From: Pseudovirgaria hyperparasitica
Lineage: Eukaryota
Assembly: GCA_010093815.1 (NCBI GenBank)
Contig: ML996594.1
Direction: 5' to 3' (one strand)
Length of the DNA: 55,468 nt
Positions 1 to 39,700 of the stretch are shown one piece after another. Made by a program: the position numbers and the translations under genes. The first letter of the stretch is position 1. Every line of letters begins with the position of its first letter. The notes beneath the pieces were generated by a model. That model ran no database searches. It had not been told where the DNA came from and saw only the letters and a program-made list of their open reading frames with translations.

Positions 1-626
1 AGGTAGATAGAGCTAATATATACTATATAGAAACCCTAGTAAATAGAGCCATAGAGCTACTCCTCTATCTTATTATTACTCTTAGAGTATAGTAAATAAA
101 CTAACTAAGTAATAGAGTAATAGAGGTTAGAGACCTTATCCTCTAGAGTAATCACGCGCTTAGTTAGAGTCTAGTAAGATAATAACTAAGCGCTAGAGTA
201 GAGTAACTAGACCTAAAGTTAGCTAACACGGTCTAGAATAATCTAGAATAGAATATATACCCTCTTATAAGGTAACTTAGAAGGAGAACTAGTAGATCTC
301 TTATAAGACCTATTAGTAGTATAAGATAGATAGAAAGAAATAGCACGAATCTCTTCCGCGGTCTTAGTAGCTAAAACTAACTTTCTAGAATAGATAGTCT
401 AAGTACTAGGAATCTTATAGTAACTAAAAATTATAAGCTAAGGTTAATAATAATTAATAGTTTCTAAACTTATACTTTAATAATCTCTAGAAAGAGCTTA
501 TAGCGCTCTCTAAACTCTCTATATATAGAAGCTAGATAACTACTAGAACCGCTAAGAGTCTTACGGACACGAAGATCGTTATATATATCTTATATATAAA
601 TAGAAATCTAAAAATATATTAGTATA

Positions 627-1561
627 ATAATATTAGTGTTTAACTAGGAAGAACTATATATATAGCCATATATATGCTCCACAGGCTCAGGCCTCCTCTA
701 GTATTGGCTGCTATGTATATAAGAAAACCTCCTATGATTGGCTCCCTAACTAGACCCTATTACTAACCTAACCTAGCCTAGTCTAAGTCCTCGAATCCCA
801 TTAGGTAATAAACTTACTTCTTATCCTTATATTAGGCTTTTTATTACTATATTAGTACCGGCTCTTAATAACGCCCTAACCAACTATAGTAGGTATTACC
901 TTTCTTGTGATTAGGTAGGTCGCTAGGCTAGGCCTAGTCTTTTATTCCTATGTTACCGTGTTTTTTTCCTATCTATGGGAATATAGCTTTACGCCGGGTA
1001 GTAGTTATTAATTAAGATAACTAATGCCGGAGGGGGTGTATATCTAATAGGTCCATGCCTTAGTACTAACCCTAGCTAGGCTGAATTCGGAAATTATTCT
1101 TCGGGGCTATGTAATCGTCTATAGGTAGGCGGGATACTTAATTAGGTATTACCGTCTATTTCGTGGTTACCGAGCCAGAGTAAGCGCGAGCTAAGCCGGA
1201 TTAGGGTAGATAAGGCCCTGGTATATAGTGAAAATTCTATGATTCGAGCTAAGCTAGTTATAGGTCTAGCCGCTCTAGGCATCGCTCTACTACTTAAGGT
1301 GGCTTGGTAGGTGGCTATATTAGGTAATTCTTATTATATAATAATAGTATAGTCATTTTTACATTACCTAATAGTCGCTTAGGACTAAGTAGTTATATAA
1401 TGGTAACCTTCACGTCACGTGCTCGCTTAGCCCTATATACTTTTTAACAGAGTGTGCGAAAACTAGTGTATGAAAAGGTGGCCGTTATAGGATTCGAACC
1501 CACGACGTTAGATAACAAACGCTTCTAGTAACGTAGTATACTACCACTACGCCACCTGGCC
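627..1561 (-). mobile_element. tRNA-derived SINE (~935 bp)
   Basis: 15-bp TSD AAATATATTAGTATA at 612-626 and 1562-1576; the homologous empty site is at ~31190-31205. The 5' head has Pol III A and B boxes, and the 3' end resembles the LINE 3' end. Confidence 0.82.
1477..1561 (-). promoter_or_regulatory. tRNA-like head of the SINE (internal Pol III promoter)
   Basis: Minus strand reads GGCCAGGTGGCGTAGTGGTAG...ACGTTA-loop-TAACGT...GTGGGTTCGAATCCTATAACGGCCACC. A box TGGCGTAGTGG at 1544-1554, B box GGTTCGAATCC at 1490-1500, partial GGCC/GGCC acceptor pairing. Confidence 0.8.
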
Positions 1562-3038
1562 AAATATATTAGTATAGATAACTTTAGATTACTCTAGACT
1601 AAAATAGTCTAATAGACTTATCTAAAGATAAACTTTACTAAGAATAGTATAGTAGTAGTAGTAGATAGGGAGCTTAAAGATTAGATATATAGGTCTATTA
1701 TAGTTAGTAGAGTAGTAGCTAATACTAGAGTTAGAGCGGAAGAGATATTTAGAGCTAGTTATATAAGTCTTAATATACTTAAAGTATATTAAGCTATAGT
1801 TTACTATTTTTCTATAGTATAAACTATAACTATATTTAGTACCTTTAGTAACCTAGGCCTTATTATTACTAGGGCTAGATTTAGAGTAAATATTAAGGTT
1901 CTAAAAGAACCTAGAGTAACTAAGTTAGTCTATATTAGACTAAAAAGAGAAATAGTATTTAGAGTAGGGTGGCGAAGGTATAAACTCTTAATTATTATCT
2001 ATAATAAGATCTTCTTTATTCTCTTAAGAAGATAGAGTAGATAGATAGCGCGAGTAGATAAAGGTAGACTTTATAGCTACCTCTTCCGTAATACTAGTAC
2101 TAGAATTATCTAGATTAGAGTAACTAGTAGCTATATTAGTAGTAATAGTAGTAGTAGTCTTAGCTATCTTCTTCTCTAACTTAGAGTATATCTTTATACT
2201 ACTATAATAAGTAGAATTTTTAGCTAGTATAGCTAGGGTAGAGATAATTCCTTTAGAGCGAGTCTTATAAGAGAAGAAGATAGACTTAGAAATAGAACTA
2301 GTATTAGATATCTATATATATATATTAGCTAGAGATCTAAGAGTAGAATACTTATTTAGTCTTAAGGGCGATTAAAGAAGCTAAATTAGTAACTATAATA
2401 ATATAAATAGATTATATAGGACTAGCTCTAATAAGAATAGACTACTCTAGATCTAAATAGATCTAAACTAAAGGAGATAATATATAAATTAATAACTTAT
2501 CTTAAGAGTAAGATAGATATACTAAAGAAGAAAATTTAGAATAAGAGAGTTAAATATAAGCTTAGTTAATATAGCGGTTATATAACCTATAGAGCTATCT
2601 CTAAGGTAGTAGATAGGAAGTAAGGGATAAGCATATATATAAATAAAAGTAAACTAGAGTTTAAGTTTACTAATATAAAGGCTATTAATAATATTATATA
2701 GATTTAATTAGATATATATATAAATATAACGCTTATAGAATTATAGATTTATATATAGCTAAGTACTTTAGAGCGAAGTATAAAAAGAAGAAGGATATTA
2801 TTAGAGCTAATACTAGAATAGACTTAACTAGACTACTATAGTCTAGTATAGTCTATAATAGATAGACCTAGATTAAGTTAGCTAGATTAAGTAAGACTAC
2901 TATATAAGTAGACTATATATACTTAATTTCTACTCTTTAGAAATTAACCTCGTTATAAGAGTAGACTATCCTTTTAAATATATTTCTAAATCCTTCTATA
3001 ATCTATTAGACTACTATCCTACGTCTATAATCCTTATA

Positions 3039-17235: not shown

Positions 17236-17608
17236 AGTTATATCTTAAGAGCTAGAGCTACTAATATTATTACTAACTCTATAATACCTTCTAATTATTA
17301 TTCTACTATATTATAAGTAATCTAAATACCCTCTAAATAACCCTATACTATACTAATAGCCTTCTATATATACTATAGTATACTCTCTTTAGTATATAGC
17401 TAGCTAGACCTTAATCTATTTAAAAGCTAATTTAATTTAATCTATAATAGTCTTAGATAATAGATAGTTCTATAGATAGTATAAGTTTTATATATATAAT
17501 AACCTTATAATCTATTATATATAATATATAAGTTATATAGAATAAGAGTCTAGCTCTACTCTATTCTATTCTATAGAAGTACATTCTCTAGTATTCTATA
17601 GAAGAGTT

Positions 17609-17768
17609 CTAGTTCTACTCTACTCTAGAGCTATTCTAGCTCTACTCTACTCTAGAGCTATTCTAGCTCTACTCTACTCTAGAGCTATTCTAGCTCTACT
17701 CTACTCTAGAGCTATTCTATCTCTACTCTACTCTAGAGGTAACTAGCTCTATTCTACTCTAGAGACTA
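17609..17768. repeat. 27-bp tandem repeat CTAGCTCTACTCTACTCTAGAGCTATT x~6
   Basis: Directly visible, with near-identical central copies. Confidence 0.9.
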
Positions 17769-18714: not shown

Positions 18715-18733
18715 TAGAGGTTATACCCGGACT
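18715..18733 (+). promoter_or_regulatory. primer-binding site of element C, tRNA-Gln-like
   Basis: TAGAGGTTATACCCGGACT, RIP-reverted TGGAGGTTGTACCCGG, resembles the complement of a fungal tRNA-Gln 3' end (...CCGGGTAxxACCTCCA). Confidence 0.6.
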
Positions 18734-19189
18734 ATAAACTTATAGGGGGAGATTAGGACTCCGAAACTAGCTTAGGGGAAGTATATAGCGTGCCTAATAA
18801 GGTAGTCTAGACTTACTAGATTGAAGCCACGAGTCCGGAAAACAGGGAGTCCGGAGTCGCTAGGGGCTAGCCTCTTAAAAGTAGCCGTAAAAAGCATACG
18901 TATACTAATATAGGTGATAGCGCGACTCGAAAATGTCTCAGGGGAATAGAATATAAAACAGGGCTAGATAAAGTAGTAAAGAAGAGTTTAAAAACGATAA
19001 ATACAACCTATTTAGTACTACTATAGCTATTATTTATAAACACGGCTACACGAGTATATCACTTTAGGAACGCCTTACACGAAGATAATAACATAAGTAG
19101 GATACCGTGAATCTTATATTAATAAAGACGATAGTAATAGTTCACCTTATAAAGGGATTAATTAATATAGAGAAGGGATAATAGATGTT

Positions 19190-22100: not shown

Positions 22101-25100
22101 TAGCCGCCCTAGTTACGGCGGCGAGGTACGCTGCCTTCGTATATAAATAAGGCACGATAATAGAACGGCTTATAGTAGGCTCTACCGGCCTCTAAAGACG
22201 GTATTCTTCCGGGGTATTAAAGGGATTTAGTATAGCTACCATGTATAAAAGAAAGGGAGTTAAAGTACACCCTATGGATAACTCCGAAGCCCACCGAAAG
22301 GTCCCTAGGAATCTATTAGGGTATCTAGACTAGCGTGAACGAGTAATCGTATAGTAGGTACTTCTTCTAGCCGTCCACCTAGGCCTTAACGCGTTTAATA
22401 GGCTAATAGAGCCTTAAAGGGTAACTATCCCGCTAGGAACACGTCTAACGCCTCTACATATAAGTTAGCTAAAGATTAGAATAGAGCTACGTCCCGCGGA
22501 ACTTAAGTTACTATATATAATCTTATTATATCGCGAGGAAGTACTAGTATAGAAATTCTTATACCTTAGTAAATTTAATAAAGAGGTAGCACCTCCGTAG
22601 GAGATCCGAATAGTAGAACATAAGGTATAGTAGGCTAAGAACTTTAATATTCCTAGAGCCCTTTATAGGAAGGTACTCATGATTCTAAAAGAGCGTCTTA
22701 ATAGCGGAAGGCTTAAGCCCTATAGTAGTCCTTATTAAAACGCCTATTTTCTTATGGAAAAGAAGAAGGAAGCTAATAAGGAACGAGATCATAGGTTAAT
22801 TAATTCGGCGATAGAAATCAACCGAGTTACTATTCGTAATGCGGCCACGCCGCCCTCGTATAAAGAATTCTCGGAGTACTTTACGGGGATAGCCGTCTTA
22901 ACGTTTACTAACTTCTTCTTAGGATATGATTAGATTCCATTAGTAGAGCATTACCGAGACTTAACGGGGTTTATAACGCCTCTAGGGTTACTACGCGGGA
23001 TAATATTACCTTAAGGGGCCACTAATTTAGTAGCTTAGTTCGTTAGGATCATATTAACTATTATATAAGAACACATCCCGGAGAGAGCTCTACTATTCCT
23101 AGATAACTTAGGTATTAAAGGACCCACGACGAAATATAACTCTAAGGAGGCCCTACCTAGAATTCGTAGGTATATCCTAGAACATTTAATTAACGTGGAT
23201 AAGGTTCTCGCGGATATAGAGCGCGCCGGATACGCTCTAAGTAGTAAGAAGACTTAGTGGTATATTAAAGCCGCTAACGTTATAGAATACGTCTACGGCA
23301 TTAAAGGGAGGCGACCGAGTAATAAAAAGGTTACTACTATTAGGGACTAGAAACCCTATAAAAACACGACGAATATGCGAGCCTTCCTTGGCGTTTATAT
23401 ATATTTCTAGATATGGATCCCCGGGTACGCTATTATCGCATCGCCGCTATTTATACTATTAAAGAATAAATCGGTCTAGTAGTAGATAGCTAAGGAGTAG
23501 ACCTCGATAGACGCGCTAAAGATAGCTCTAACTACTACTCCTATACTAATAACGTTACGGTACGGGATAGGTGCGGGAGATATAATCCTAGTAGTAGACT
23601 CTAGTAACATTAGATAGGGGGCTACGTTAATATAGGAGAATGAGAATTATAAACGTTAGCTATCGCGGTATAATAGAGGAATATAGTTAAAAGCTAAGAG
23701 AAACTACGACACCGTGAAACTAGAGTACCGAGCCCTCCTCCACGCGTTATAGAAGTTCTAGTAATATCTCTATAGTACGTACTTTATTATAGAAATAGAC
23801 GCGAATACTCTAGTTACTTAAATTAACCATACTATAACTAACTTACTAGGGGCGCTCGTTACTAGGTGGCTCGCGTAGATTTAGCTATAGAACTTTATAG
23901 TTAGGCACGTACCTAGAAAGCGTAACGTAGTCGCTAACGGTATCTTACGGATATACGAAGGAGAAGAACCACCAGACGTCCCTACCTTTAACCTAGACGA
24001 GTTCGTGGATATAGCTCTATATATAGACGTGCTAGAGACGTCGTTAATTAAGCCTATTAGCGGGAGAGATTACACGATAGAGATACTCGACTATACTACC
24101 ATTAAGTCTCCCTTAATAGATGAATATAGCGATAAATAGTAGAGGATTACGAAGTACCTTACTATACTCGAGAGGCTAACCGACCTAACTAACCGAGCGT
24201 ATAAGACCTTTATAACCGACTACCTAAAGTTCCTCGTATATAACTAAATACTCTAGCGGAGAGGAGATAGATATCACTAATATACACGAGTAATTAAGAA
24301 TCCGAATACTAGGGCGTGTATAATTACTACCACTCACGACGAGATAGATTATAGAGATAGTAAAGGGACCCTCGGAAGGATTAAGGATAAGTATTAGTAG
24401 GTAGATATACGTAGAGACGTGCGATAGCACGTGAAAACCTATAATAAATATTAATAACAAAGTAAGCTCCTTGGAGGTCTTAATAAAGGGCTCTACCACG
24501 TTATAACGCCTATTCTTTAGTAAAGAATATACTTAGACGTAACGATACTACCACCTTCCATAGGGTATAGTAAAGTAGTATCTATACGAGAATAGCTAAG
24601 CGGATAGACTAAGGCGGAGGCATGTACGGCGGCCACGTCCATAGTCGTCGTAAAGTTCCTCTTTAAGAACGTAATCTATAGATATGGAATCATTTCTAAA
24701 ATCACCTATAACGGTAGTAGAGAAAATATAGGTGCTATAGAGGAGCTTCTCCGACTCTATAGAATTCATTAGAAGATTACGTCTATATATAATCCCTAAG
24801 TAAATAGAATTATTAAGAGAAGTTTTATACTACTCGCTAATGCTCTCATAAAGATAACTAATAGCGGATTTAAGAACTAGCCCGACCACCTCTATACGGT
24901 CGTCTAGGTAGATAGAATAACGACACGTGCTAGTATAGGGTATAGTACTATATACCTCGTGCTCGGCTATAAACTAATCATACCTATTAAAGTCGAATTC
25001 GAGTCGCTCTAAATGCTCCCTTAGGACGAGATGCGATTAACGTCCGACTTACTTGCTCTTCGAGCTAGATAACTTAAGAGAAGATCCGAGGATCTTAAGG

Positions 25101-25600
25101 AGGCCTATACCTACGCGATACGAACGCGTAAGGAATCGAGAGAGGCATAGAATAATAACTATTACCTTCGTTAAGAGTCGTTACTAGTCGATATAATTAT
25201 CCTTCTATACGACTCGTAGTAATAGAAGGATATAGGGCGGAAGCTAAGGTAGCATTAGAGGGGGCCATATAGAATCTAGTCCGTGTTTAATTATACTTAT
25301 AAGCTTACGGAGCTTAATAGAGCCATGCTTAGAGGGACGTTTCCTAGCCATAGGTTAAAGAAATATTTTATAAGAAATGTGAGTAACGAGAGTTACGACG
25401 AGCCCTCACGACTACTAATTAGAAGAATTACTAAGGAAAATAAGGAGAGTAGTAATAAGGAAAACTATTATAAATAACTTACGGAACACCTTAACGACGC
25501 TACACGAACCCGGATAGAAGTAGTAATTCCTACTCCGTAAGACTTTAATAGAGAGGAATATTTACGTTTCCCTAGAATCGATATCTCCTTCTAGGGGATA
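19190..25600 (+). pseudogene. gag-pol of element C (RIP-inactivated)
   Basis: Same frame throughout: gag FKGINIIAFL ~19403, protease VLF(D)S(G)A(Q)VN ~21480, RT FF(S)GYD(Q)IPL ~22913, LP(Q)GATN ~23005, FLD(D)LGIKGP ~23096, RNase H ~23590, integrase YNP(Q)..GII ~24790. Ends approximate. Confidence 0.88.
21924..21960. repeat. palindrome GGATTATTAGTTAAGGG-CTA-CCCTTAACTAATAATCC (copy 1 of 4)
   Basis: Perfect 17-bp arms with a 3-nt spacer. Confidence 0.95.
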
Positions 25601-26238
25601 GAAGTTTTTTTAAGAAGGGAAGGGATACTTATAAAAGTAGTCTTATAACGATGAACTCTATTATCGAAAGAGGATAATAAACCCTATCATTACTATAAAA
25701 TAATAAAACTTATTATTAAAGTAAGTAATACTCGAAAGAAGACATAATGGCGTTTACGCAAATTCCACCCACTATATATTAAAGCCGGTTATATAATCGA
25801 AGCCCACCTATCGAAGGCCCATTTCATTACTATAGAACGGGCCCTATTAGAAACTAATAAGGAAGAAAAGAAGGAGGAGATATAGGAGAAAAAGATACTT
25901 ATAGGAAGTCTTATAAGAATAAGAATATACCTAGTATCTATTCATTCATAGATTCCGCTATATACCCGGTAGATACATTCATTTATAGATTTCCTATATA
26001 CCTAGCATATATTTATTTACAGATTCGACACGTATACGGGCCTATAGCCGTTAGTAAGGATCATTTATAAAAATTACTATATACCCGGCATTCGAGGAGG
26101 CATAAAAAGAGAACTTAAGATAGTATATAACTCTTCCCTCTTATACCTCTCTATACCTCCTTAATTAATAAAACCTCCTCCTCCACTTCCGCCTCACTTA
26201 ACTACCTCTCCTTAGAACATAACTCGCCAATAGAACCG

Positions 26239-29175
26239 ATAATAATAATAGCCCCGCCGAAAAAGAAAACGCCTACCCGTAAAGAGTTATAAGATCGTTA
26301 AGTACTAATAAGATAGACGCGGTCCTAGTTAAGAGTCGTAAGTACTAAAGTAGGGCTATTAACGGCTATTATAGTATTAAGGCCATCTACTACTCCGTAC
26401 GGATAGGCTATAGAAGCTACGGAAGTAAATAAGTCTACTATTAACCGAATTATCGCCATCTAGGACCCGTAAGAGCGATAGGACTACATTCTAGATATAT
26501 TTAATAATCTCCTTTATATTACCAGCCTTATAGAATAGCTCTTAAGTAGTATAGTTAACCTCTTCTAGGAAGTAGGAGCCGCAATAGGGTATAGTAAGGC
26601 AAAGATTAACTCCTCCATTCCGAAAGAAGTCTATAAGATAATTCGTCGTGGAAGAGACACCAACTCCCGTATCCTAAAAGCCAAAAATATAATCCTATAA
26701 AACTAGCGAAAAGACCTCCCTAATAACGACGGCTAGTTACTCTAATCTACCCTTAGATAGCTCTAGTAAATATAGAACTTTATAGAAAAGCTAGTAGCGC
26801 TCTTACGAGTGCGGACATGGGCGAGAGCGAGGAACTAGTTAAACGCATCCCTATAGTCCCGAATCGGCTAGGGATAGAAGAGAAGGGGAATTAAGGCATA
26901 TCTTTAGAGCTCTAATATTAATACCGCCCTAGCTAGCGATAGTAACGAGGACGGTCTATCTCTCTAGTAACTCTTAAACTACCCTAGCCGATAAAATAAA
27001 CTAACGTTCCATAATAAGACGGGACTTATTATCCCTACTAGTTAATAGTTACGGATAAGTAGAATGGTTTATAGGCCCGTCGAACACTACCTATAAATCA
27101 AAGAGATAAGTATATCGCCTCCGTCTTAGACCTTACCATCGCTAAAACCAGCGTAGGTAACACCTACGGTAAAGTCCCCTCCATAAAGCACGCCTTCTAG
27201 TTTAGTAGTATATCGTCTCTTCGAAGCTAGTCGTCCGTTCGAAGTAAGTATTCCTTCTACTACTACTAGTAAACGTCCCTTACCGGGCTATACGAGAACC
27301 TCTTTAGTATCTATTATAGCTATACCGACAAAACCCACTCGTAGACGTACCTTATCTACCAGCCCTTAGTAATTACTAGGGGCGCCTATATAATAATCCC
27401 TAGTTATTCTTAGTTTATACTCTAAGATAATAGCATCGGTCGAGGAAGAGGACGAGCCTAAGAAGTATTAATACACGCCTTTAGTAACGAAGACTTTTAA
27501 GGTAGCTACATTATTAAAGAAGAATTTCACGAGCATTAAGGGAATGGCCCTACTAGTGCGCTAGAAAGCGTAGATAGGTAACATAGCTATTCCGTATAAA
27601 GTCTACTATAAGCATTACCAAGACGTGGCTAGAAAGAATAATATACTCGTTAGCGTGTCCTACTTAAACCTAGTAGCAAGACTTAAAATAGTATATAAGT
27701 TTAGAGATAACGTGGGGGCCCTTAAAGTTTATAAGGGCCGCTATACCTAGTTCGCGAAGTACGCGCGGCCACCTTATCCGATAGAGGCATTAGGTGTCTA
27801 TCATTACTAGGCCCTAGAGACCCTAAAGCAAGTTATTAATATTAAAACCATTCTTACTAGTATCGCATTTATAATTCAGAAGGAGGACGGTAGAATAGGT
27901 AGGTAACTCTTCGACGAGTAGAAATATACCGGAAGTATTAATATTAAAGGGCTCTTTAAGCTACTTAAAAAGACGACCTCTATACTTAATAAGAGTATTC
28001 TAGAACTCGCGAGGGATGAATTTAATATATATAAGTACTACTAGCGCATGTTTAATAAGAAATCGAACTATAGCTAGCTACGAACTATATACTACTCCTA
28101 TATCTAATAGTTTATTAGGTAATACCTACTTTACTAGCTCACCTATATCGCTCTTCGGCCCGATCTTAACTACTATCTAATCTCGTACCCGTACTATACG
28201 AAGTCCTAGGATAGAGACGATAAGACGGGTTTTAAGTATCTCGATAACGCTATCAATCGAATCCTCGATCCTAGCGATAGATATAGGTTTAATATAATCT
28301 AGGGGAGTATTAGTCTCGACGACGAACGAAGTAACGACTATACCATAATTATTCCCCGCTCCTATAAGTTCTTAAACGAATAGTAGTCGAAGGCCAAGCT
28401 CCGCGAGGGGGTTAATCAAAATAGTATAATCACGGCTATTAATAATAAGATCTATAATACGGACGATAGGAAACGATTTAGTCCCTTCGTTCCGGTCCTC
28501 TACCAGTCCCTTAAAGTACACATCTCTAGCCTACTAATAATACACGGCGCCTAGGGTCCCATAAAGGGTAGAAGACGTACGATACTTCCATGGTATATCG
28601 CGATTAGCCCTAATCATATAATAATAGAAGTGCCTAAAATAGGTACATAGGAATAACTCGCAGTAGCTTATAGAAATTTAACTCTAGGACCCACGTCTCC
28701 GTTAGGATTTTCTAATAAATATAGCGCGATTCCTTTTGCCTTCCTAGCCGTAGTTTAACTCCCGAGTTTTAACGCCGTTAGTAACGCATTAGTCGGCCGT
28801 AAAAGATAGGATAGCTAGAAGGTAAAAGAAGAGGCAGCTACGTGGCTTAACGCAAGTCCTTAATAACTTAAAGCTAAGGTAGACGCCTAGTTTAAGGAGG
28901 GCTCGAGGGTATTCATGGAGACCTTTAAGAAAATAGTAAGGTAGGAAAAGCTAGTCTATAGGGATAGGTCGTTCTAGAAGGAATTTAATAAGGCGCGCGC
29001 CGCCAAGCAGCTAATTAATTTTAAGAAATTCGAGCCTAACGCGGGCCTAGATAATATTAAAGAGAACTTCTACGGATAGAAGAGGCCTAACGAACTATCC
29101 GACGAGGAGGAATCTAACCTCTCTAAGATAAGCGACATGATTCTTTAGAAGCTGGCTCACGACCTTAAGTACTAA
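26239..29175 (+). pseudogene. cargo ORF of element C: putative 2OG-Fe(II) dioxygenase (PhyH-like fold) with a long N-terminal extension, RIP-inactivated
   Basis: About 980 codons in one frame, where the stops read were RIP-type TAA/TAG. Motifs ALRPD..LISYPYYTK, GFK(H)LD (28237-28245), I(Q)GSISLDDE, HGA (28543), RRRTILPWY (28570). Confidence 0.7.
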
Positions 29176-29200
29176 GATTAGGCGCCTAAAAGCCTACCTA

Positions 29201-29233
29201 ATTATTAGTTATGGGCTACCCTTAACTAATAAT
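29201..29233. repeat. palindrome copy 2 (one mismatch), just after the cargo ORF
   Basis: ATTATTAGTTATGGG-CTA-CCCTTAACTAATAAT. Confidence 0.92.
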
Positions 29234-30455
29234 CCGGGCTAAGGTTTACCCGCGCCGAGAGGTTTACTAGGGGCGCATTTTATTCATATTAAGGTCTTTC
29301 TTTTAGGCGTTCTTCACACGGTTTCTTATACGGTTACTATACTACTAAGGGTAGTAGTTCTATAGGCCGGGGAGGTATATGTGGAAGGCCGCTCCTATAG
29401 CCCTATATATATATGTCCCTGGCTCGATTATATGGCTTCATTATATATTTAAGGAGGGCGTTTTCCTCGGTTATTCTACTCGGCACGCTTCCCCCATTAC
29501 TAATATTTAATAATTCGACCTTTCCTTATGTTTATAGGCCTCTATGGGTATTAATTATTAGACTTAGCTATTAAAGAATTAATTAAGAGTATTATATAGA
29601 CCCGTCCTATCGTAAAAGAGAACTAATAAGAAGTCATGCGTTTAAAGAGAACTTATAATACCTAGGAGAGATACTTATGAGTTCGTCGTGACTACTATAC
29701 TAAGAACATAGCTATTTACAAAAAGGGACACACGTGGCGATAGCTTACTATAGTAGTCTAACAGGTCATAGGAGGATTCGGGAATATATTTAAAAGGGTA
29801 GTCTACTCTTCTAATAAGGTTAATTTCTAAAGAGTAGAAATTAAGTATATACGGCCTACTTATATAGTAGTCTCGCTTATTCTAGCTAGCTTAACCTAGG
29901 TCCACCTATTACGGACTATACTAGACTATAGTAGTCTAGTTAAGTCCATCCTAGTGTTAGCCCTAATAATATCCTTCTTCTTTTTATGCTTCGCCCTAAA
30001 GTACTTAGCTATATATAAATCTATAATTCTATAAGCGTTATGTTTATACGCGCATCTAATTAAATCTATATAATATTATTAATAGTCTTTATATTAGTAA
30101 ACTTAAGCTCTAGTTTACTTTTATTTATATACGCGCTTATCCCTTACTTTATAGCTACTACCTTAGAGGTAGATCCGCGGGTTATATAACCGCTATATTA
30201 ACTAAGCTTATATTTAGTTCTCTTATTCTAAATTTTCTTCTCTAGTATATCTACCTTACTCTTAAGGTAAGTCGTTACTTTATATACTATCTCCTTTAGT
30301 TTAGATCCGTTTAGGTCTAGAGTAGTCTATTTTTATTAGAGCTGGTTCTATATAATCTACTCGCGTTATTATAGTTACTAATTTAGCTTCTTTAATCGCC
30401 TTTAAGGCTAAACAAGTATTCTACTCTTAGATCTCTAGTTAACGTGTATATATAG

Positions 30456-32311
30456 ATATCTAATACTAGTTCTATTTCTAAGCCTACCTCCTCCTCTCGT
30501 AAGACTCGCTCTAAAGAGATTATCTCTACCCCGGCTATACCGGCTAAAAAATCCACTTATTATAGTAGTATAAAGGCGCGCTCTAAGTTAGAGAAGAAGG
30601 TAGCTAAGGCTACTACTACTATTACTACTAATATGGCTACTAGTCGCTCTAATCTAGGTAATCCTAGTACTAGTATTACGGAAGAGGTAGCTATAAAGCC
30701 TACCTACACCTACTCGAGCCGCCTATCTACTCTACCTCCTTTAGAGAATAAAGAAGATCTCGTTATAGATAATAATTAAGAGTTTACGCCTTCGCCGCCT
30801 CGCTCTAAATACTATTCCTCTTTTCGGTCTAATATAGACTAACTTAGTCGCTCTAGGTCCTTTTAGGACCTTAATATTCGCTCTAAACCTAGCCCTAGTA
30901 ATAATAAGGCCTAGGTCGCCGAAGATACTAAACGTAGTCACGGTTTACGCTATAGGAAAACGGCGAACTACGGTTCGATATACTTTAAGTATATAAAGGC
31001 TTACGCTACTAGCTCTAAATATCTCTTCCGCTCTAACTCTAGTATTAGCTACTACTCTATTAACCGCGATAGGCCTATATACCTAATCTTTAAGCTCCCT
31101 ATCTACTACCGCCGCTATACTATCCTTAGTAAAGTTTATCTTTAGGTAAGTCTATTAGGCTATTTTAGTCTAGGGTAATCTAAAGTTATCTATACTAATG
31201 CGTTTTTAGATTTCTATTCGTGTATAAGATATATATAACGATCTTCGCGTCTACGAGACTCTCGGTGGTTCTAGCGGTTATCTAGCTTCTATATATAGAG
31301 AGTTTAGGGAGCGCTATAAGCTCTTTCTAGAGGTTATTAATGTAAACTTAACCTCTACTATATCTAATAAGTTTATATAAGGTANNNNNNNNNNNNNNNN
31401 NNNNNNNNNNNNNNNNNNNNNNNNNNNNNNNNNNNNNNNNNNNNNNNNNNNNNNNNNNNNNNNNNNNNNNNNNNNNNNNNNNNNNNNNNNNNNNNNNNNN
31501 NNNNNNNNNNNNNNNNNNNNNNNNNNNNNNNNNNNNNNNNNNNNNNNNNNNNNNNNNNNNNNNNNNNNNNNNNNNNNNNNNNNNNNNNNNNNNNNNNNNN
31601 NNNNNNNNNNNNNNNNNNNNNNNNNNNNNNNNNNNNNNNNNNNNNNNNNNNNNNNNNNNNNNNNNNNNNNNNNNNNNNNNNNNNNNNNNNNNNNNNNNNN
31701 NNNNNNNNNNNNNNNNNNNNNNNNNNNNNNNNNNNNNNNNNNNNNNNNNNNNNNNNNNNNNNNNNNNNNNNNNNNNNNNNNNNNNNNNNAGTCTATTACG
31801 GCTAGATCCTATTATATAACTCTATTTAGATATATATTCCTTATATAAGGAATATTATATATCTATTTATACCTGCCCTTTTCATAATTAAAGTATAAGT
31901 TTAGAAACCGTTAATTATTATTAACCTTAGCTTATAATTTTTAGTCGCTGCGAGATTCCTAGCGCTTAGGCTATCTATTCTAGAGAGTTAGTTTTAGCTA
32001 CTAAGACCATAGAAGAGATTCGTGCTATTTCTTTCTACCCGCCTCGTGCTACTAATAGATCTTATAAGAGATCTACTAGTTCTCCTTCTAAGTTACCTTA
32101 TAAGAGGGTATATATTCTATTCTAGATTATTCTAGACCGTGTTAGCTAACTTTAGGTCTAGTCGCTCCGCTCTAGCACTTAGTTATCGTCTTACTAGGCT
32201 CTAACTAAGCGCGTGGTTACTCTAGAGGATAAGGTCTCTAACCTCCGTTACTCTATTACTCGGTTAGTTTATTTACTACGCTCTAAGAGTAATAATAAGA
32301 TAGAGGAGTAG
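30456..32311 (+). pseudogene. antisense intron-containing accessory gene of Gypsy A (Zn-cluster-like plus coiled coil)
   Basis: Frame from ~30456 ends (C)RR(C)TILSKV(C)L(Q) at intron 31146-31209 (GTAAGT...CTAAT...TAG). Further candidate introns ~31893-31930 and ~32108-32155; last exon ALTKRVVTLEDKVSNLRYSITRL. Confidence 0.65.
31341..31886. mobile_element. LTR-type insertion D (solo LTR or collapsed element; contains N gap 31385-31789)
   Basis: Begins TG and ends CATA; TSD ATTAA at 31336-31340 and 31887-31891; absent from the homologous copy near position 480. Confidence 0.75.
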
Positions 32312-33726
32312 CTCTATGGCTCTATTTACTAGGGTTTCTATATAGTATATATTAGCTCTATCTACCTAGTTTCTATCCGTTTTAGTCCTTTTTAGACTAT
32401 TTAGATATCTATCTACTAGTTTTCTAGTAATTTAATTCTTAACTTAATAATATTATATACGTTCTTATTTATTCTATAACTATTAAATTCTAGGTTCTAA
32501 TTTCCTTTAAGTTACTTAAGTATAGATATTATATATAAATTAGTTTATCTCTCTAAATTATATTAGAGTACCCGAACTAGTAGTCTAGTACTTATTAGTT
32601 TAGATACTCTAACCTTTTATATTATATATTACGAGTTTAATTCCGTAGTAGAGTACTTTTTTAGTTCCTTAGTTCTATATTCTTCTTATATATAATAGTC
32701 TATATTAGTCTATTCTAGACTTCTCTATATTATTCTATTATAATATATCGCGTCGCGTACCTATAACGGTTATTTATATTTTCTTTACGTTTAGTAACTA
32801 TATATTACTTAAATTATAGAGCTATCTTATAGAGTTTTACTACTATACGTTTAGAATTTATAATTTAATACTTTATTCTCTATAGTATTCTTCTTCTTTT
32901 TATAATAGCTCTAATAGTACTAGACTTATAGTAGTAACGTGTTATTCTATAACCTCTATTTATATATAGCTATCGCGGTACTTAAGATATATACCGTAGG
33001 TTCCTAGGTGTTCTTATCCTCGGTATAGTTCTTCCAACGGATTTAATACTTTTAGATACCGTTCTCGTCGAGCCTATATTCGATAATATAGTCTACTTTA
33101 TATACGTCTAGTCTATCTTAGAGTATAATAGAGTATAATTACACGTTTATACGTTTATATACGTTAGATCGAAACCTTTTAAGTAATAAGACGTGGAATA
33201 CGTTATAGACTTTTATATCGTTTCCTAGGTCGAGCTCGTAGACTCTTATACTAATACGACGTTTAATTCGGAAGGGACCAGCCATTTTATAATCGAGCTT
33301 TTTATTTACTCGCGATATTTATATATTATAGATATTAAGAAGGACTTCGTCTCTCTCCTCGTACGCTTAATCTTTAACTAATCTATTATAGTACTTTATA
33401 TACGACTTATTCGCTTACTAGATTATTACGCGATAGTTATATACGGTTTTAAAGATTTTAATCGCTAGTTCCTACGCGTGGACGTTAACATCTATTATTC
33501 AGTTAAACTAGACCGTATAAGGTTCGAAACCTATCCTTAGACTACGTTCTAGGTTCGCCTAGAAGGGCGTGACACCTATTATACTATAATAACTATTATT
33601 ATACGCGAATTCTACTATACTTAGTAGAGAGGCCTAGTCGTCTTATTTAAAATTATAGAATGCACGAAGGTAGGCCTCGAGCGTTTAGTTCTATCGCTCT
33701 ATCTAACTATCTATTTATAGATGGAA

Positions 33727-36700
33727 TGTAAGAATAGGGTTATTGGATAGTAGTATAGCTAGATAGAACAATGGGGTATATTCTATTACAGAATGAATTA
33801 CTACCGAACCCTTTTAGTAGGAATCCAAGAGTATATATATAAAGGGACGCCGATCTATCTAGCACGTGACTATTTACCGCCCTTCACGTCACCTCCTAAC
33901 CCTATTAGCTAAGGTATATATAGGTCGAGTCCTACCTAAGGCTAAGTCCTAATAATTATCCCTTCCCTCTAGGAAGCTACCCTTAGTAACCTAGATCGTT
34001 ACCTATCTCTATATCCCCATCCTAAGTCTCGCAAGACCTTAGTCGTTCTCTACGCTTCGTCTTAGATACTTACCGATATTCTCCGATCTAAGATTTACAC
34101 AAGCGTTTTCTAACAAACTAGATTTTATCCATCTTAACTTCTTACATAGGTGAGATTACCTAATTAGGCCTAGCGTATCACGTAATATGATTAGGTAAGC
34201 CCGGGTGCTACCTATATCAAAATCTTTTCTTAGAAATATTCCTTTCTTTAAAAAACCTCTTAACTCTTTATAGAGTTCTTTAGATTATTAGGTATATCAC
34301 CCGATCCTTATAGATATAGATTTATGTAGATTTACTATAATTTAGTACGATTTACGTAATTTACTAATTTTCGTGCCGTCCTTAGCTAGTAATAACATAA
34401 TTCGTAATAATCCATATAAATTAATAATAATCGTAACATGGTTTCCCGAAATCTCGACGCTCTAAAGTAATTAGCGCGGAAACAGGCGCCTTTAAATAAT
34501 CCCTATCTTATATGCGTTACCGACATGTCGAAAGCTATTAATCTACCCCGACCTAGGCCGGGCTCTAATAATCTAGCTATATATTATTATAGTTATCGCT
34601 TTCCGTCGTACGTTGCTTACGGTAGTACTAAATCTATAATATACGGTACTTACATGACTAAGAAGCGTCATTACTTATAGGTATTTAAGTAAGTTTAAAG
34701 AACTTTACGTAGATTTACTTATATCGGTATAGATTACTACTAGCCCTCTAGTAACCCCTACTAATAAGGAGCGTGGTACTACCGATCGTAACGCCTTAGA
34801 GAAGGCTTTCTACGAGCTATATATCTAAGATAAGGGTTACGCCTAGGAGTACGATTCTAATAAGATCCGTAAGGATTTATTAGAATCTACTATAGCTATT
34901 ATTACTACGATTACTAGGTAATATCGTTTTTCTTAAATCGTTATAGATTCTTACTAATATATATTAATCTCTATAATAGTACTAAAATCTCTACTACTTC
35001 GGACTTCTTTCTACATACCAGCAATATTAAAATTCCTAGAAAAGATTCTAGTAAAAAGACTAAGGTTCCTTCCCCACGCGTGCTAAAGAGCCGTAAATTT
35101 AGGGAAGATAGCTCTAATCTAGAAGTTTCTATACTAAAGGTATATAGTTCTATACTAATCGTTAAATCTTTTTATTAATTTATATAATTCTTAGCGTGCG
35201 CGCGCCGGTCCGTCCCTCTCCGTCCCGGGTTCTACCGCTCTATAGGTTTCTATAGAGGAGCTTATAGCTATAAGGCGCGCTATATAGAATTTGTAGCGTC
35301 GGAACGAAAGGCTAGAGACTTATATTATAAAGCTCTATACTATACTAAACAAGAACCAGCAGAAGGAATTAGATGTAACCATCGCGGTGATTAGTACTTC
35401 TACTCCTACTCCGACTTAATTAGTTTAGATCTACACCGATCGGTGCTAATATATCTCTTTTATCTAGCGTTTTTGGTTTTTCGGTTTTAATTTTAAAGCG
35501 ATCTTGCTTCTTCTAGATAGATTAGTGCGAGTTTACATAGATCTATATAGATCTTTATATTTTCTTTTAGCTTTCTTAATTTTATCTTTCTTTAATAATA
35601 ACTTTCTTAATCTCTTTAGTAATCTATACCGATCTATACCGATCGGCACCGATTTTCGATGTCCATTTCTCTTAGTAAATCATTTTTCTAAGTCTCTTTT
35701 TTAGTTAAATTTTTTAAAGTTCTAAGTTCGAACTTTCTAAGGAAGTTCCTTAATTCCTTAGAATGTTTTAAAGATCTATATCTCTTTTACCTTCTTCCTT
35801 TTAGGCGGCCGTCCTCGGCGCTAAACTATACTAAAAAACGTCGAATCGCCGTACTTTAGTATAATTCTCTACGATTCCGCGGCTTCCTTTACTAATCGCT
35901 ACTTATATACTAACATCGCTACTTTACTAATGTTTATTATAGGTTCCCAAGTATCTTTATTAGGATTATACCCTTTCTAATGAATTTTATATAGCTACGT
36001 ACCATCTTCGGCACGTTATTAGCCTAGTATCTACTTAACTTCGTAGATATCCGCACCTCCTTACGTAACTACTTTATATAACGTCTATTCGGAATGATCC
36101 GGTAACGATAAGGCATGGAATAACTCGAGAAGCGTAATATGGAATATATTATATATCTTTAACGTGGGAGGGAGTTTCAACTTATACGCCTAGTCATTAA
36201 TTACACGAGTAACCTTAAATAGACCTATTATCGTGTAGTTAAGCTTCTTCTTCGGCCTAATACTACGAATATTCTTACTATTTAGTAAAACTTTATCTCT
36301 AACATTAAAGATCATGGGCTTTCTACCCTTATTATAGTACGATTTACTATAATCTATAGCATCTTATAATAACTTTATAACGCTTCTTTGCGTTTAGAAT
36401 AGTTCTATCGTAATCTCCGTCGCCTTAACGTTAGGCTACTCTAATTTATACTAAGTTCCTATAAACTACGCTTTATAGTTTCGACCGAAGTTTACTTCGA
36501 ACGGACTTACGTGGGTTAACGTATATTAGCTATTATTATACGCGAATTCCGCGATATAGACTAACCTTACCTAGTTATCTTACTTATAGTTATAATATAC
36601 GCGTAAATACGCCTTAACTATCTGATTCTACCGCTCTATCTACCTATCTATTTATAGGTGGAACGCGGTACTAAGTTTCCGCTTAATTCCCAGCGTATAG

Positions 36701-39700
36701 TAGAAATCCTTCTAAAACTTAGACGTTATCTACGGACCTCTATCCGAAACTATACCGTTCGGTATACCGTAGAGCCGAACTACGTCACGAAGTAGTATAT
36801 CTATAAGATCTAGTGCTTAGATTATCTTCCTTATAGGGATATAGTATAACATCTTTATAAATCTATCTAGAACTACGAGTAAACTATTATAAACATGCCT
36901 AAGATACTTACTTAGGGGTAGATCTATGATAAAATCCATTAACAATTCTTTCCATGCCTTATTTAGCATAGGCAATAGCCTTAATTCGCTATATGGTAAG
37001 TGTCTATACACTTTCGTATGCTGGTAAACGTTATACGTTTTTACGTAGTCCTTTATATACTTATAAAGACCTAGCTAGTCGTATATCCTTCGGATTAAAT
37101 CGACTGTCCTTATAACGCCGAAGTATCCTACTAATACGTAATTATACTATTCCCTTAAAACATCGATTCGTAAGCCGCCCTCCAGCACGTAGAGTCGGCC
37201 TTAGAAGTAGATCGCGTCCGATCGTCGTTCCCACCTTAATAACTATGGCGGTTCTATAGCGATTCCCTTTATACTTATAACTTTCTTTACTAATATATTA
37301 GAATTCTAGGTAGATTTAATTAAGTCTTTAAGGATTTACTCTATTTCTTAGACGTTAGTTTGGATTACTTAATACCCGCTCTAATTCCCGCGGAGAGTCG
37401 CCGAAAGTGTCCTGGCTTCCGGCACTCTATTAGATAACTAGTCTTTTAGTATCTATAGTATAGCATAGTCTAAATTACACCAACTATCTACGTTATTCTA
37501 CGACGATTTCTCGTAATCTTTACGCCGTAATAGAGGATCTACTTTATTCTCTCTTCTAGCTTTATATAAGATTTTAAAGTTAAATATTAACATCTACTTA
37601 GCCTAACGTACTTATTAGCGATTAAGGACCTTGGTCGACATAAAGTAACGTAGATTTACGTAATCCGATAATAATTCAATCTAATATACGGAGCCTTCTA
37701 AATAATATCGCCATTACTTAAAACTCTTAATAATTATAAGTAGTTCCTAGTCGTGCGTGTTATAACGCGTCTCTATATCCGCCATTTTATAGGAAAAGAA
37801 GGCGACCGGGTGCTATTACACCTTGTCTTTCGTATCTTTATACGGTTAACTAATAATTCTAGTAATTACGAATCTAGATACGTCTATTTCGACCTAAATA
37901 TGCTTCTCGGGATTAAAATATCTAAGGATCGGTATAGTTATAAAGTAATTCTTTAACGATCGGAACGTATCTCGCGCTTCCGGCGTTAACTATATCTCGA
38001 CCGACTCCGCTTTACGCTATGCTCGCCTACCTATAGGGATTTTACCGCCATTTTCGGTAAGTTTATTAAGCGGCGCCGCAATTCGTAAGAAACCTATAAT
38101 GAATTTACGATAATAGTTCACGAAACCTATAAACGTCCTAATTTAACGTATAGTAGTAGGTTCTAGCTATTCTATAATAGTCTTAACACGCTCTAGCTCC
38201 ATTTTAAGGCCGCCGTATATTATAATAAAGCCGAGAAACCTAACTTCTTATTAGTAAAACTTACATTTAGATAACTTTACGTAGAGTTTATACTATCTTA
38301 AATAATTTAGCACCGATTTCACGTGTTCTTCGTGATCCTACATGCTATCGGAGTAAATTAGTATATTATCGAGGTAAACTACGTAGATCACATTAAGTAA
38401 TCCTATAAGTATAGTATTAATGTATCCTTAGAACGCTCCTAGCGTATTTATTAGCCTAAACGGCATAATAGTATACTTAAAATAACTATATCTAGTCCGA
38501 AATGCGGTTTTCTACTTATCTCCGCGACGGATTCGAAGCCGGTAATATATATCTCGTAAATCTAGCTTTATAAAGTACTTTGCCTTCGTTAATTAGTCTA
38601 AAGATTCACTAACCAACGGTAATAGGTAACGATTCTTCTTAGTCACCGCATTTAGTACTCGATAGTCGACGCATAGATGTAAACTTCCGTCTTTCTTCTT
38701 TATAAAGAGAATAGATACGCTAGCTAATAACGTACTACGACGTATCTAGCCTCTTCTAAGATATTCTTTAATATATTTATAAAGAACTTTAAGTTCTAGT
38801 CTCGAAAGTAGGTAAAGTAGACTATAAGGGACGTCTACTCCCTCTTTAAGCTTAATCTTTAGCTTATGCGGCCTATAGTCGGGGAGAAGTAACGCGTCTC
38901 CTACCGAAAATATATCTATATACTACGAATATACGTCGGGTAGCGTGTCTTTACCCCGATTATTACTATCCTCTTTGTCTTCGTCGATAATCGATAGGGA
39001 TATAAGGTAGATTAGCGACGATCGGGTCCGCACGGTAAGGTTCCATGCCTCCTTACTAATAGTTACGACTTACTAGTATAATTTACCGCGATGTTAACGG
39101 AACGTTAATGTCTCCTTCTAAAAATTAAGGATTGGGTTTAGGCGTTTAAGCTAAGGCATCCCTAGAATCATATTCTATTAGCTAATATTAGCCACGATGA
39201 ATTTATTAGACATCTACTATTTTATTATCTTTAAGTTATAAACTTCGTAATTCGTTATAGTTTTACCTAAAGTTCTAACTTTATATCTATTAACTACGAT
39301 AGTTCGGCTAACTTTACTAAGATCGTACGATAATCTATACTCCTTAACGAGAATCGACGAAATATAGTTATCTTCTATACTAGTGTCCACGAGGGCCTAT
39401 ATAGTTTTATTACTATTTACTATAGGTAACGATACTTTTAGTAATATTAGGTCTTTACTCGCCGGAAGGCGCTACGGCTCCTCCTAAGTATATATAATTT
39501 AGCTAAGAACGCGGTTAGGTCTCGCGTACTAGCCTATTCTTTTTTTGGATTCTTATAGTTAGGCGAAATATATCCCTTTTCTCTATACTTATAGTAATAA
39601 AGTACGCTATGATCCTACTATTTTACGATAGGCGTTATATTTAAGCCTATGCCTTATCCTTTTCCGTGTTGGGAACTACCGCCTCGATTATTTCGGTGTC

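What the first reader, a model, noticed from the sequence alone, without database searches (positions are those of the whole stretch)
30456..32311. Gypsy A carries a matching antisense gene with the same intron position
Seen: A also has a ~3 kb post-pol region. Antisense it reads a Ser/Lys-rich N-terminus, (C)FK(C)...(C)...(C)RR(C)TILSKV(C)L(Q) followed by GTAAGT, two more candidate introns and a coiled-coil last exon. Both A and B end this exon with CxxC-x6-C-L-Q at a phase-0 intron despite unrelated-looking LTRs. The region recurs in the A copy at 1-2798, so it belongs to the element. Inference: an old, vertically inherited accessory gene family of fungal chromoviruses.
Basis: partly seen in the sequence, partly recalled or inferred. 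Interest (0 to 1): 0.8.

Follow-up and report, generated by a model that had tools for sequence, protein, structure and literature searches.

The report
Dead antisense spliced gene in fungal retrotransposon
A mutated fungal gypsy-type retrotransposon appears to carry, between its polymerase gene and its end repeat, the relic of a four-exon gene on the opposite strand; a neighbouring element has a similarly built one, but the two could not be shown to be related.

Summary
The sequence features are real. Element A is a RIP-degraded Ty3/gypsy chromovirus on the minus strand (LTRs 29750-29978 and 45460-45688), split by a nested gypsy at 33673-41107. It has a 3.0-kb post-pol region.

On the plus strand a frame runs 30456-31145 with 4 internal stops in 229 codons. 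It ends TAG|GTAAGT, and a 64-nt consensus intron shifts into the next stop-poor frame.

A RIP-proof measure, purine/pyrimidine codon periodicity, supports a 4-exon model (30456-32311). None of 2791 control windows reaches exon 1's value.

Strand remains the weak point:
- For plus: splice signals, C over G at codon position 2, and a host-gene model with simulated RIP.
- For the mirror frame: a retrotransposon-trained codon model.

Both start about 480 nt from the 3' LTR and both end in four leucine heptads.

The A-B "match" is not supported:
- BLASTP, hhalign and shuffle tests give nothing significant.
- Three protein-library searches (one exhaustive, two word-seeded) and Pfam found no relative.

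Antisense accessory genes between pol and the 3' LTR are already known (Boty brtn in Botrytis; plant Grande, RIRE2, Retand).

Verdict: probable dead antisense accessory gene; a shared family is unproven.

The parts
29750..29978 (-). 3' LTR of element A (pairs with 45460-45688)
   Evidence: Direct repeat family D2, 92% identity; blastn 29750-29971 vs 45460-45681.
29979..30455 (+). 477-nt stretch between the LTR edge and the proposed start; presumed promoter/5' UTR of the antisense gene (inferred)
   Evidence: No periodic coding signal and 2-6 stops per 40 codons in each frame across most of it; the signal in exon 1's frame begins near 30380-30410. The nested element has 485 nt in the same place.
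30456..31145 (+). Exon 1: ATA (possibly ex-ATG) to TAG. Ser/Thr/Lys-rich with six in-frame RSK/RSN, then a Tyr-rich end
   Evidence: 4 internal stops in 229 codons. R1-R3 +0.27 (0 of 2791 control windows reach it). C2-G2 +0.16.
31146..31209 (+). Intron 1, 64 nt: GTAAGT ... TACTAAT ... TTTTTAG, phase 0
   Evidence: Only match to the strict intron pattern in 91 kb. Shifts frame f0 to f1, where the periodic signal continues. Sequence.
31210..31340 (+). Exon 2 (44 codons, completed by base 31892)
   Evidence: 1 stop. R1-R3 +0.27.
31341..31886 (.). 546-bp insertion, solo-LTR-like, not part of the gene. Holds the masked N run 31385-31789
   Evidence: Starts TG, ends CATA. 5-bp duplication ATTAA at 31336-31340 and 31887-31891. 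Absent from the copy at 1-2797.
31893..31930 (+). Intron 2: GTATAA...TATTAAC...CTTAG, 38 nt, keeps frame. The alternative acceptor at 31944 (52 nt) breaks the frame by one base
   Evidence: Read. Weak: short, with a non-consensus donor.
31931..32107 (+). Exon 3 (59 codons), basic Ser-rich tail
   Evidence: 1 stop. R1-R3 +0.23 and C2-G2 +0.16 were measured on 31940-32107. Frame f2 is the best in windows starting 31850-32060.
32108..32155 (+). Intron 3: GTATAT...CTAAC (32146-32150)...TTTAG, 48 nt. Alternative acceptors at 32161 and 32182; all keep the frame
32156..32311 (+). Exon 4: four a/d heptads (L-x3-V-x2 repeated), a seventh in-frame RSK, stop TAG 32309-32311
   Evidence: The RSK 8-mer at 32279 sits in this exon's frame.
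32900..33672 (-). End of A's pol: SH3_Tf2-1 and chromodomain
   Evidence: Pfam 6e-12 and 6.7e-06.
1..2797 (-). Second copy of the post-pol region. Exon 1 at 1625-2311. A 931-bp insertion with a tRNA-like head lies at 637-1567, inside intron 1
34438..35422 (+). Comparable antisense model in the nested gypsy. E1 34438(ATG)-34680, I1 to 34732 (52 nt), E2 34733-34917, I2 to 34979 (62), E3 34980-35139, I3 to 35194 (55), E4 35195-~35420 with four heptads
   Evidence: The frame of the periodic signal switches f1/f2/f1/f2 at these borders. 6 stops in 268 codons.

Best explanation
Element A carries the RIP-killed relic of an accessory gene on the strand opposite to gag-pol. It lies between the chromodomain end of pol and the 3' LTR.

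**Gene model (shown as sequence features)**
- It starts about 480 nt inside the 3' LTR edge and runs towards pol.
- It has four exons and three short introns of fungal type.

**Inferred product**
- About 385 residues.
- A basic Ser/Thr-rich N-terminal part with repeated RSK.
- A Tyr-rich stretch that may once have been Cys/His-rich.
- A C-terminal four-heptad coiled coil.

**Inferred mechanism**
- The gene was transcribed from its own promoter in or near the 3' LTR.
- Its introns survived retrotransposition because they are inverted in the element's genomic RNA and so cannot be spliced out of it.
- The product was a nuclear, dimerising regulator of the element or of host factors. This would resemble antisense accessory proteins of other retroelements.

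All copies seen here are dead. The nested gypsy carries a similarly organised relic. Whether the two share ancestry is open.
For: **Frame**
- 4 internal stops in 229 codons in exon 1. The four exons together have 1.9% stops, against 5.2% and 6.2% in the in-frame RIPed gag-pol of the two other gypsy elements in the window.
- Codon periodicity is unaffected by RIP, because RIP makes only transitions. It follows frames f0, f1 and f2 across the proposed exons. Exon 1's value is reached by 0 of 2791 control windows.

**Strand**
- The unique consensus intron 31146-31209 lies on the plus strand.
- C exceeds G at codon position 2 in 3 of 4 A exons and 4 of 4 exons of the nested element. The same holds in the host ORF (+0.155). 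No known coding set here is clearly negative; the range is -0.001 to +0.155.
- A codon model trained on the host ORF after simulated RIP prefers the proposed strand in 9 of 9 tests: +36.3, +22.8, +1.2, +6.6, +6.2 for A and +12.1, +7.9, +7.4, +9.4 for the nested element.
- The three frame changes fall at plus-strand GT..AG sites. RIP makes no indels, and two of the three aligned copy segments show none.
- An ATG is kept at the start in the nested element.

**Belongs to the element**
- It is present next to an A LTR in both copies.
- No delimiting repeats mark a nested insertion.

**Precedent**
- Antisense genes between pol and the 3' LTR are described for Boty and several plant gypsy elements (passages in PMC7264820, PMC8365987 and PMC11963269).
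Against: **Codon models and composition**
- A codon model trained on RIPed gag-pol prefers the mirror (minus-strand) frame for every A exon: -14.4, -17.8, -6.6, -2.7, -2.6. It is neutral for the nested element: -0.0, +3.7, +0.8, -0.1. The same model classifies the controls correctly: copia 13/13, host ORF 16/17, A RT 5/5.
- The purine/pyrimidine model trained on retrotransposon genes also favours the mirror, by 13.3.
- The plus strand is pyrimidine-rich here.
- The host-based model rests on one gene that is itself Ser/Thr/Pro-rich.

**Weak splice evidence**
- With relaxed splice patterns, 25 frame-phase combinations drawn from 101 plus-strand candidate introns, and 25 from 99 minus-strand candidates, have stop-poor flanks. 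Introns 2 and 3, and all three introns of the nested element, are therefore weak one by one.
- A poor minus-strand candidate (31195-31120) spans the same border as intron 1.
- With the GTAAGT donor but a looser branch and spacing, 3 of 8 candidates had stop-poor flanks.
- Intron 2 is either only 38 nt or breaks the frame.

**Other**
- No ATG is left in A.
- Period-3 repeats at 30610-30642 add to the periodicity.
- No Pfam family.
- No relative in 1.84 billion representative proteins for the exon 1 profile, nor in two word-seeded searches.
Confidence: 0.62

Rival explanations
1. The coding strand is the element's own (minus) strand. The region would hold a sense-oriented third ORF after pol, and the reader read its codon-aligned mirror frame.
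For: - The mirror frame of exon 1 has only 8 stops in about 230 codons (read from the translation printed).
- The retrotransposon-trained codon models prefer it.
- The minus strand keeps the purine richness of gag-pol.
- The third gypsy in the window does carry a sense post-pol ORF with real homologues.
Against: - The stop-poor segments lie in three different frames. On the minus strand the borders read CT..AC, apart from one poor GTATAG candidate.
- Several small sense-oriented introns would be spliced out of the genomic RNA and lost on transposition.
- The mirror reading needs about 30% G at codon position 2, against 0.16-0.17 in every known coding set here.
- The host-after-RIP model rejects it in 9 of 9 tests.
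Confidence: 0.13
2. There was never a gene. The open frames come from skewed composition, short period-3 repeats and a repeated 8-mer. The intron look-alikes are chance in TA-rich RIPed DNA.
For: - No homologue was found anywhere.
- TRF finds period-3 and period-12 repeats inside exon 1.
- Relaxed intron patterns are common.
- Post-pol regions of LTR elements often hold repeats (passage in PMC11963269).
Against: - The periodic signal extends over the whole 690 nt of exon 1, not only over the repeats. It reappears in the right frame in three further exons, and in four exons of a second element.
- The flanks of the 8-mer copies are unrelated, so there is no DNA tandem array.
- The strict intron pattern is unique and exactly placed.
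Confidence: 0.15
3. The gene relic is real but is cargo rather than an accessory gene of the element. It would be a host gene or gene fragment picked up at the DNA level by an ancestor of A and copied passively. The nested element's gene would then be an independent pick-up.
For: - Host-like composition: C2>G2, pyrimidine-rich third positions and a fit to the host-RIP model.
- Retained introns.
- No detectable A-B similarity.
Against: - The same place, orientation, distance from the LTR (478 vs 486 nt), exon number and coiled-coil end appear in two elements whose pols are only 35-47% identical.
- No host homologue was found.
Confidence: 0.1

Closest known systems
brtn, the antisense gene of Boty-like Ty3/gypsy elements of Botrytis cinerea and Sclerotinia (Zhao et al. 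2011, Virology 417:248). The paper is not held; I saw only how PMC8365987, PMC7264820, PMC4227169 and PMC5987419 cite and describe it.
   Same: - A fungal gypsy element with a chromodomain.
- An extra gene between pol and the 3' LTR, on the opposite strand.
   Different: - My searches, whose libraries include NCBI proteins, returned no relative.
- BRTN itself could not be fetched for a direct comparison.
- Here the gene has three introns. Whether brtn has any, I could not read.
Plant antisense additional ORFs between pol and the 3' LTR: maize Grande gene23, rice RIRE2, Silene Retand (TRP28 domain), PvRetro13 (passages of PMC7264820 and PMC11963269).
   Same: - Position and orientation.
- Long post-pol region.
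- Proposed nuclear or regulatory role.
- Own promoter, reported for Grande.
   Different: - Non-chromovirus plant lineages.
- No Pfam hit here, TRP28 included (E <= 0.1).
- Spliced structure here.
HBZ of HTLV-1: a retroviral antisense gene transcribed from the 3' LTR, with a spliced form and a basic leucine-zipper protein. This is recalled knowledge; PMC11963269 only mentions that HTLV genomes encode antisense genes.
   Same: - Antisense and starting near the 3' LTR.
- Spliced.
- Basic regions plus a heptad leucine repeat at the C-terminus.
   Different: - No bZIP Pfam match.
- A retrovirus of animals versus a fungal retrotransposon.
- The likeness is architectural only.

Membership tests
Antisense additional ORF between pol and 3' LTR of Ty3/gypsy elements (aORF-3R: brtn, gene23, RIRE2, Retand) | Lies between the end of pol and the 3' LTR, inside the element | tested here: met
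   The gene model spans 30456-32311. It sits between the Chromo end near 32982 and the LTR edge at 29978.
Antisense additional ORF between pol and 3' LTR of Ty3/gypsy elements (aORF-3R: brtn, gene23, RIRE2, Retand) | Coding strand opposite to gag-pol | tested here: inconclusive
   For: the unique plus-strand intron, C2>G2 and the host-RIP codon model, 9 of 9. Against: the retrotransposon-trained models.
Antisense additional ORF between pol and 3' LTR of Ty3/gypsy elements (aORF-3R: brtn, gene23, RIRE2, Retand) | Present in most copies of the element family | tested here: met
   Present in 2 of 2 copies in the window. The rest of the genome is not held.
Antisense additional ORF between pol and 3' LTR of Ty3/gypsy elements (aORF-3R: brtn, gene23, RIRE2, Retand) | Transcribed in antisense from its own promoter | not testable with these tools
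   No RNA holder was listed.
BRTN / TRP28 protein families | Sequence similarity to BRTN or to Pfam PF04195 | tested here: not met
   No Pfam family at E <= 0.1. No protein hits. RIP damage lowers sensitivity, and BRTN was not compared directly.
Chromovirus (Ty3/gypsy with chromodomain) | RT, RNase H and integrase followed by a C-terminal chromodomain, flanked by LTRs | tested here: met
   A: SH3_Tf2-1 and Chromo above cutoff; RT region 47% identical to the nested element's over 468 aa; LTR pair. Nested element: RVT_1, RNase H and integrase domains; Chromo at 24.8 bits, just under the 25.1 cutoff.
   Only the exon-end comparison is suggestive: a tie for top among 579 sites.

The most novel reading that the evidence does not exclude
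Fungal chromoviruses as a group carry an intron-bearing antisense regulator gene next to the 3' LTR. Its product would be a basic protein ending in a leucine zipper, a retrotransposon counterpart of retroviral HBZ-type antisense genes. On this reading A's and the nested element's genes are diverged members of one old family, distinct from brtn, that annotation has missed because the copies sit in RIPed DNA.
Probability: 0.22. Interest if true: 0.65.

Novelty: new variant of a known kind. Interest (0 to 1): 0.45.

Why it matters
Antisense accessory genes of LTR retrotransposons are few, poorly understood, and in fungi described only for Boty. If this reading holds, it has three consequences.

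1. A second and perhaps third fungal case, with several introns, would show that such genes recur in chromoviruses.
2. It would show that the antisense position protects their introns through reverse transcription.
3. It would give a concrete target to look for in less mutated relatives.

There is also a point of method. Purine/pyrimidine codon periodicity is untouched by RIP, so it can recover the frames of genes that RIP has filled with stops.

Tried and rejected
**Sources that gave nothing**
- Whole genome: not held.
- RNA evidence: no RNA holder listed.
- Earlier notes of this scan: nothing by place, words or sequence.
- Metagenome scan with the nested element's integrase-chromodomain: 3 loci, 26-38% identity, on contigs of 1.0-4.3 kb. 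They are too distant and too short to show a post-pol region.

**Analyses that were uninformative**
I then used translate and protein ids.
- Purine/pyrimidine nucleotide Smith-Waterman of exon 1 against the nested element's post-pol region: 95.0 observed against a shuffle mean of 93.0.
- Intron-against-window blastn: A's introns do not pick out the nested element's introns. The nested element's introns resemble each other.
- My impression by eye that A exon 2 and the start of exon 3 resemble the nested element's exons 2 and 4 did not survive shuffling or BLASTP.

**Ideas rejected**
- A exon 1 hit the copia integrase at 47926-48417 (E 6e-4, 22% identity, composition correction off). I rejected it as compositional.
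- I first read the 540 bp missing from the copy at 1-2797 as a deletion there. The TG...CATA ends and the 5-bp duplication show instead an insertion in the main copy.

**Side searches**
- PDB sequence search with the third element's post-pol frame: none.
- Rfam and ARAGORN on the tRNA-like insertion: none.

**Literature**
- Zhao et al. 2011 is not held.
- A search on 'brtn' alone gave mostly unrelated papers.
Full report
**Setting.** The window is fungal DNA. Most of it is heavily RIP-mutated: TpA/ApT is 1.5-1.9 and (CA+TG)/(AC+GT) is 0.03-0.38. The exceptions are a GC-rich island at about 6-16 kb and a milder stretch at 46-50 kb.

Repeat mapping gives three gypsy elements:
- Element A lies on the minus strand, with about 230-bp LTRs at 29750-29978 and 45460-45688.
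- Its integrase is split by a nested gypsy at 33673-41107, also on the minus strand, with 280-bp LTRs.
- A third gypsy lies at 18342-29752 on the plus strand, with 369-bp LTRs.

Pfam finds SH3_Tf2-1 and Chromo at the end of A's pol (32900-33672). The nested element has RVT_1, RNase H and integrase domains, SH3_Tf2-1 and a borderline Chromo. A's RT is 47% identical to the nested element's over 468 residues, and the integrase parts are 35-37% identical.

**The observation.**
- On the plus strand the frame 30456-31145 has 4 internal stops in 229 codons, all TAA or TAG. It ends with TAG followed by GTAAGT.
RIP can make TAY from TGY (Cys) or from CAY (His), so the zinc-finger reading is possible but cannot be checked here.
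- The second copy at 1-2797 is inverted and abuts an A LTR at 2797-3041.
- The two copies differ by 193 transitions and 13 transversions. Two of the three aligned segments have no indel; the third, 165 nt across exon 2, came out in two blocks. The region therefore travelled with the element.

**Two later insertions.**
- The main copy has a 546-bp insert at 31341-31886. It starts TG, ends CATA and is flanked by a 5-bp duplication ATTAA. It looks like a solo LTR and contains the masked N run.
- The other copy has a 931-bp insert with a tRNA-like head inside intron 1.
- The masked stretch is therefore probably not part of the gene. I cannot see it, so this stays an inference.

**Is it a gene relic?** RIP makes only transitions, so the purine/pyrimidine sequence is unchanged by it. 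I used the purine excess at codon position 1 over position 3 (R1-R3).
- Along the plus strand the signal sits in frame f0 for windows starting 30410-31100.
- It moves to f1 for windows starting about 31160-31250, up to the insertion.
- It sits in f2 over 31850-32060 and again over 32210-32330. These are the frames of the proposed exons.
- Exon 1's value (+0.27) is reached by 0 of 2791 windows of equal length taken from all frames and both strands of the RIPed DNA.
- The four exons together have 1.9% stops. The in-frame RIPed gag-pol of the two other gypsy elements in the window have 5.2% and 6.2%.
- Period-3 repeats at 30610-30642 add locally to the signal, but the signal covers the whole exon.
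- An 8-mer that reads RSK or RSN occurs six times in exon 1. All spacings are multiples of three and the flanks are unrelated. A seventh copy lies in the last exon, in that exon's own frame.

**Introns.**
- Intron 1 (31146-31209, 64 nt) has GTAAGT, then TACTAAT (TACTAAC after one RIP-type change), then TTTTTAG.
- The strict pattern GTAAGT-N25-75-RCTRAY-N3-20-YAG occurs once in 91 kb of RIPed sequence, both strands counted, and that is here.
- Removing it joins f0 to f1 in phase.
- Intron 2 is weak. With the acceptor at 31930 it is 38 nt and keeps the frame. With the better-looking acceptor at 31944 it is 52 nt and breaks the frame by one base.
- Intron 3 (32108-32155, or to 32161 or 32182) has GTATAT and a perfect CTAAC. 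All three versions keep the frame.
- A relaxed scan shows how little such weak sites prove alone. 25 frame-phase combinations drawn from 101 plus-strand candidate introns, and 25 from 99 minus-strand candidates, have stop-poor flanks. With the GTAAGT donor but a looser branch and spacing, 3 of 8 do.
- The last exon ends at TAG 32309-32311. It holds four clean a/d heptads: L/V, L/V, L/I, L/L.

**Which strand?** R1-R3 is the same for a frame and its codon-aligned mirror, so it fixes the register and not the strand. The mirror frame of exon 1 has only 8 stops.

Evidence for the plus strand:
- The unique intron lies on it.
- The frame changes fall at GT..AG sites, which read CT..AC on the other strand.
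- C exceeds G at codon position 2 in 7 of 8 exons of the two elements. No known coding set here is clearly negative; the range is -0.001 to +0.155. The mirror reading would need about 30% G there.
- A codon table from the window's host ORF after simulated RIP prefers the plus strand in 9 of 9 tests.

Evidence for the minus strand:
- A codon table trained on RIPed gag-pol prefers the mirror frame for all A exons (-14.4, -17.8, -6.6, -2.7, -2.6) and is neutral for the nested element.
- That same table classifies copia, the host ORF and A's RT correctly.
- The earlier purine/pyrimidine model agrees with it.

The verdict on strand depends on the model. I weight the splice evidence and position 2 more heavily and give the plus strand roughly three to one.

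Reading on from it gives a four-exon model:
- E1: ATG 34438 to 34680.
- Intron 1: 52 nt, with donor GTATTT, which is non-consensus.
- E2: 34733-34917.
- Intron 2: 62 nt (GTAATA...TACTAAT...TAG).
- E3: 34980-35139, with no stop in 53 codons.
- Intron 3: 55 nt (GTATAT...TACTAAT...TTAG).
- E4: from 35195, with four heptads.

The periodic signal switches f1, f2, f1, f2 at these borders.

Parallels with A:
- The same place and orientation.
- A start 486 nt from the LTR edge, against 478 nt in A.
- Four exons.
- A basic Ser/Lys-rich segment.
- A coiled-coil end.

**Are the two genes related?** I could not show it.
- tblastn finds nothing between them.
- BLOSUM local scores of cognate exons are reached by 811, 1016 and 1194 of 2000 shuffles.
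- Transition-blind codon alignments are reached by 64, 26 and 21 of 200 shuffles for cognate pairs, and by 166, 129 and 157 of 200 for non-cognate pairs.
- hhalign gives 1.8% probability. BLASTP finds no alignment.
- Anchoring on the exon end, B's site shares 5 of 19 residues with A's. That ties it for first with 8 other sites among 579 other stop|GT sites, and it ranks tenth by BLOSUM.
- This is suggestive at about 0.02, but the test was chosen after seeing the data.
- The pols are only 35-47% identical, so homology is neither shown nor excluded. I put it near one in three.

**Relatives elsewhere.** None was found.
- Exon 1 in the word-seeded library: none.
- A profile of both exon 1 copies against 1.84 billion representatives: 0 hits.
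- The nested element's exons 2 and 4: none.
- Pfam on the exon 1, exon 2 and exon 3-4 frames: none at E <= 0.1.

RIP damage and, for two of the searches, the need for exact 5-residue words both lower sensitivity.

**What is known.** I read passages of the papers below, not whole texts.
- PMC8365987 and PMC7264820 state that Boty-like gypsy elements of Botrytis and Sclerotinia carry an additional antisense gene, brtn, citing Zhao et al. 2011. That paper is not held.
- PMC4227169 describes a Boty-like element with a chromodomain and brtn.
- PMC5987419 reports a Monilinia transcript similar to BRTN.
- PMC7264820 and PMC11963269 review plant cases (Grande, RIRE2, Retand with TRP28) and suggest a regulatory, nuclear role by comparison with retroviral antisense genes.

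The kind is therefore known. What would be new here is a sequence-unrelated, multi-intron form in other chromoviruses. They are no proof that none is in print.

**Mechanism.**
- Shown: position, exon frames, splice-like borders, presence in both copies, and inactivation by RIP.
- Inferred: an own promoter near the 3' LTR; survival of the introns because they are inverted in the genomic RNA; a nuclear, dimerising regulatory protein.

Nothing here tests function.

Noticed in passing
window 25550-29383, best 27931-28824 (+): The third gypsy (18342-29752, plus strand) has a sense-strand post-pol ORF relic. It is homologous to hypothetical proteins of Sclerotinia borealis (535 aa, E 6e-22) and Monilinia laxa (466 aa, E 2e-19). 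The first of these has a just-sub-threshold Pfam PhyH dioxygenase match (21.3 bits against a cutoff of 22). A dioxygenase-like gene inside a gypsy element would be unusual..
   Followed up: partly
window 637-1567: A 931-bp insertion lies in intron 1 of the second A copy. It starts with a tRNA-like head and is flanked by a 12-nt duplication, so it looks like a SINE. ARAGORN and Rfam find nothing..
   Followed up: partly
window 31341-31886: A solo-LTR-like insertion (TG...CATA, with a 5-bp ATTAA duplication) interrupts exon 2 of the main copy. 405 bp of it is the masked N run..
   Followed up: partly
window 46600-49800 (+): An AT-rich (26% GC) Ty1/copia element with little RIP damage: 13 stops in 1067 codons, and Pfam RVT_2 at 2e-49 plus gag, integrase and SH3 domains..
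   Followed up: partly
window 11343-15530 (-): An intact 1396-aa host ORF with PX, PH and RhoGAP domains sits in the GC-rich island between the RIPed blocks..
   Followed up: partly
window 29750-29752: A's 3' LTR starts within 3 bases of the end of the third gypsy's 3' LTR (29384-29752), so one element is inserted at the very edge of the other..
   Followed up: no
window 17559-17747: A tandem array of 27-bp units lies just upstream of the third gypsy. One search, family D8.
   Followed up: no
window 3039-5728: A fragment of another A copy (gag side and 5' LTR) is joined to a solo LTR of the nested element's family. It holds a second masked N run at 3918-4397..
   Followed up: no
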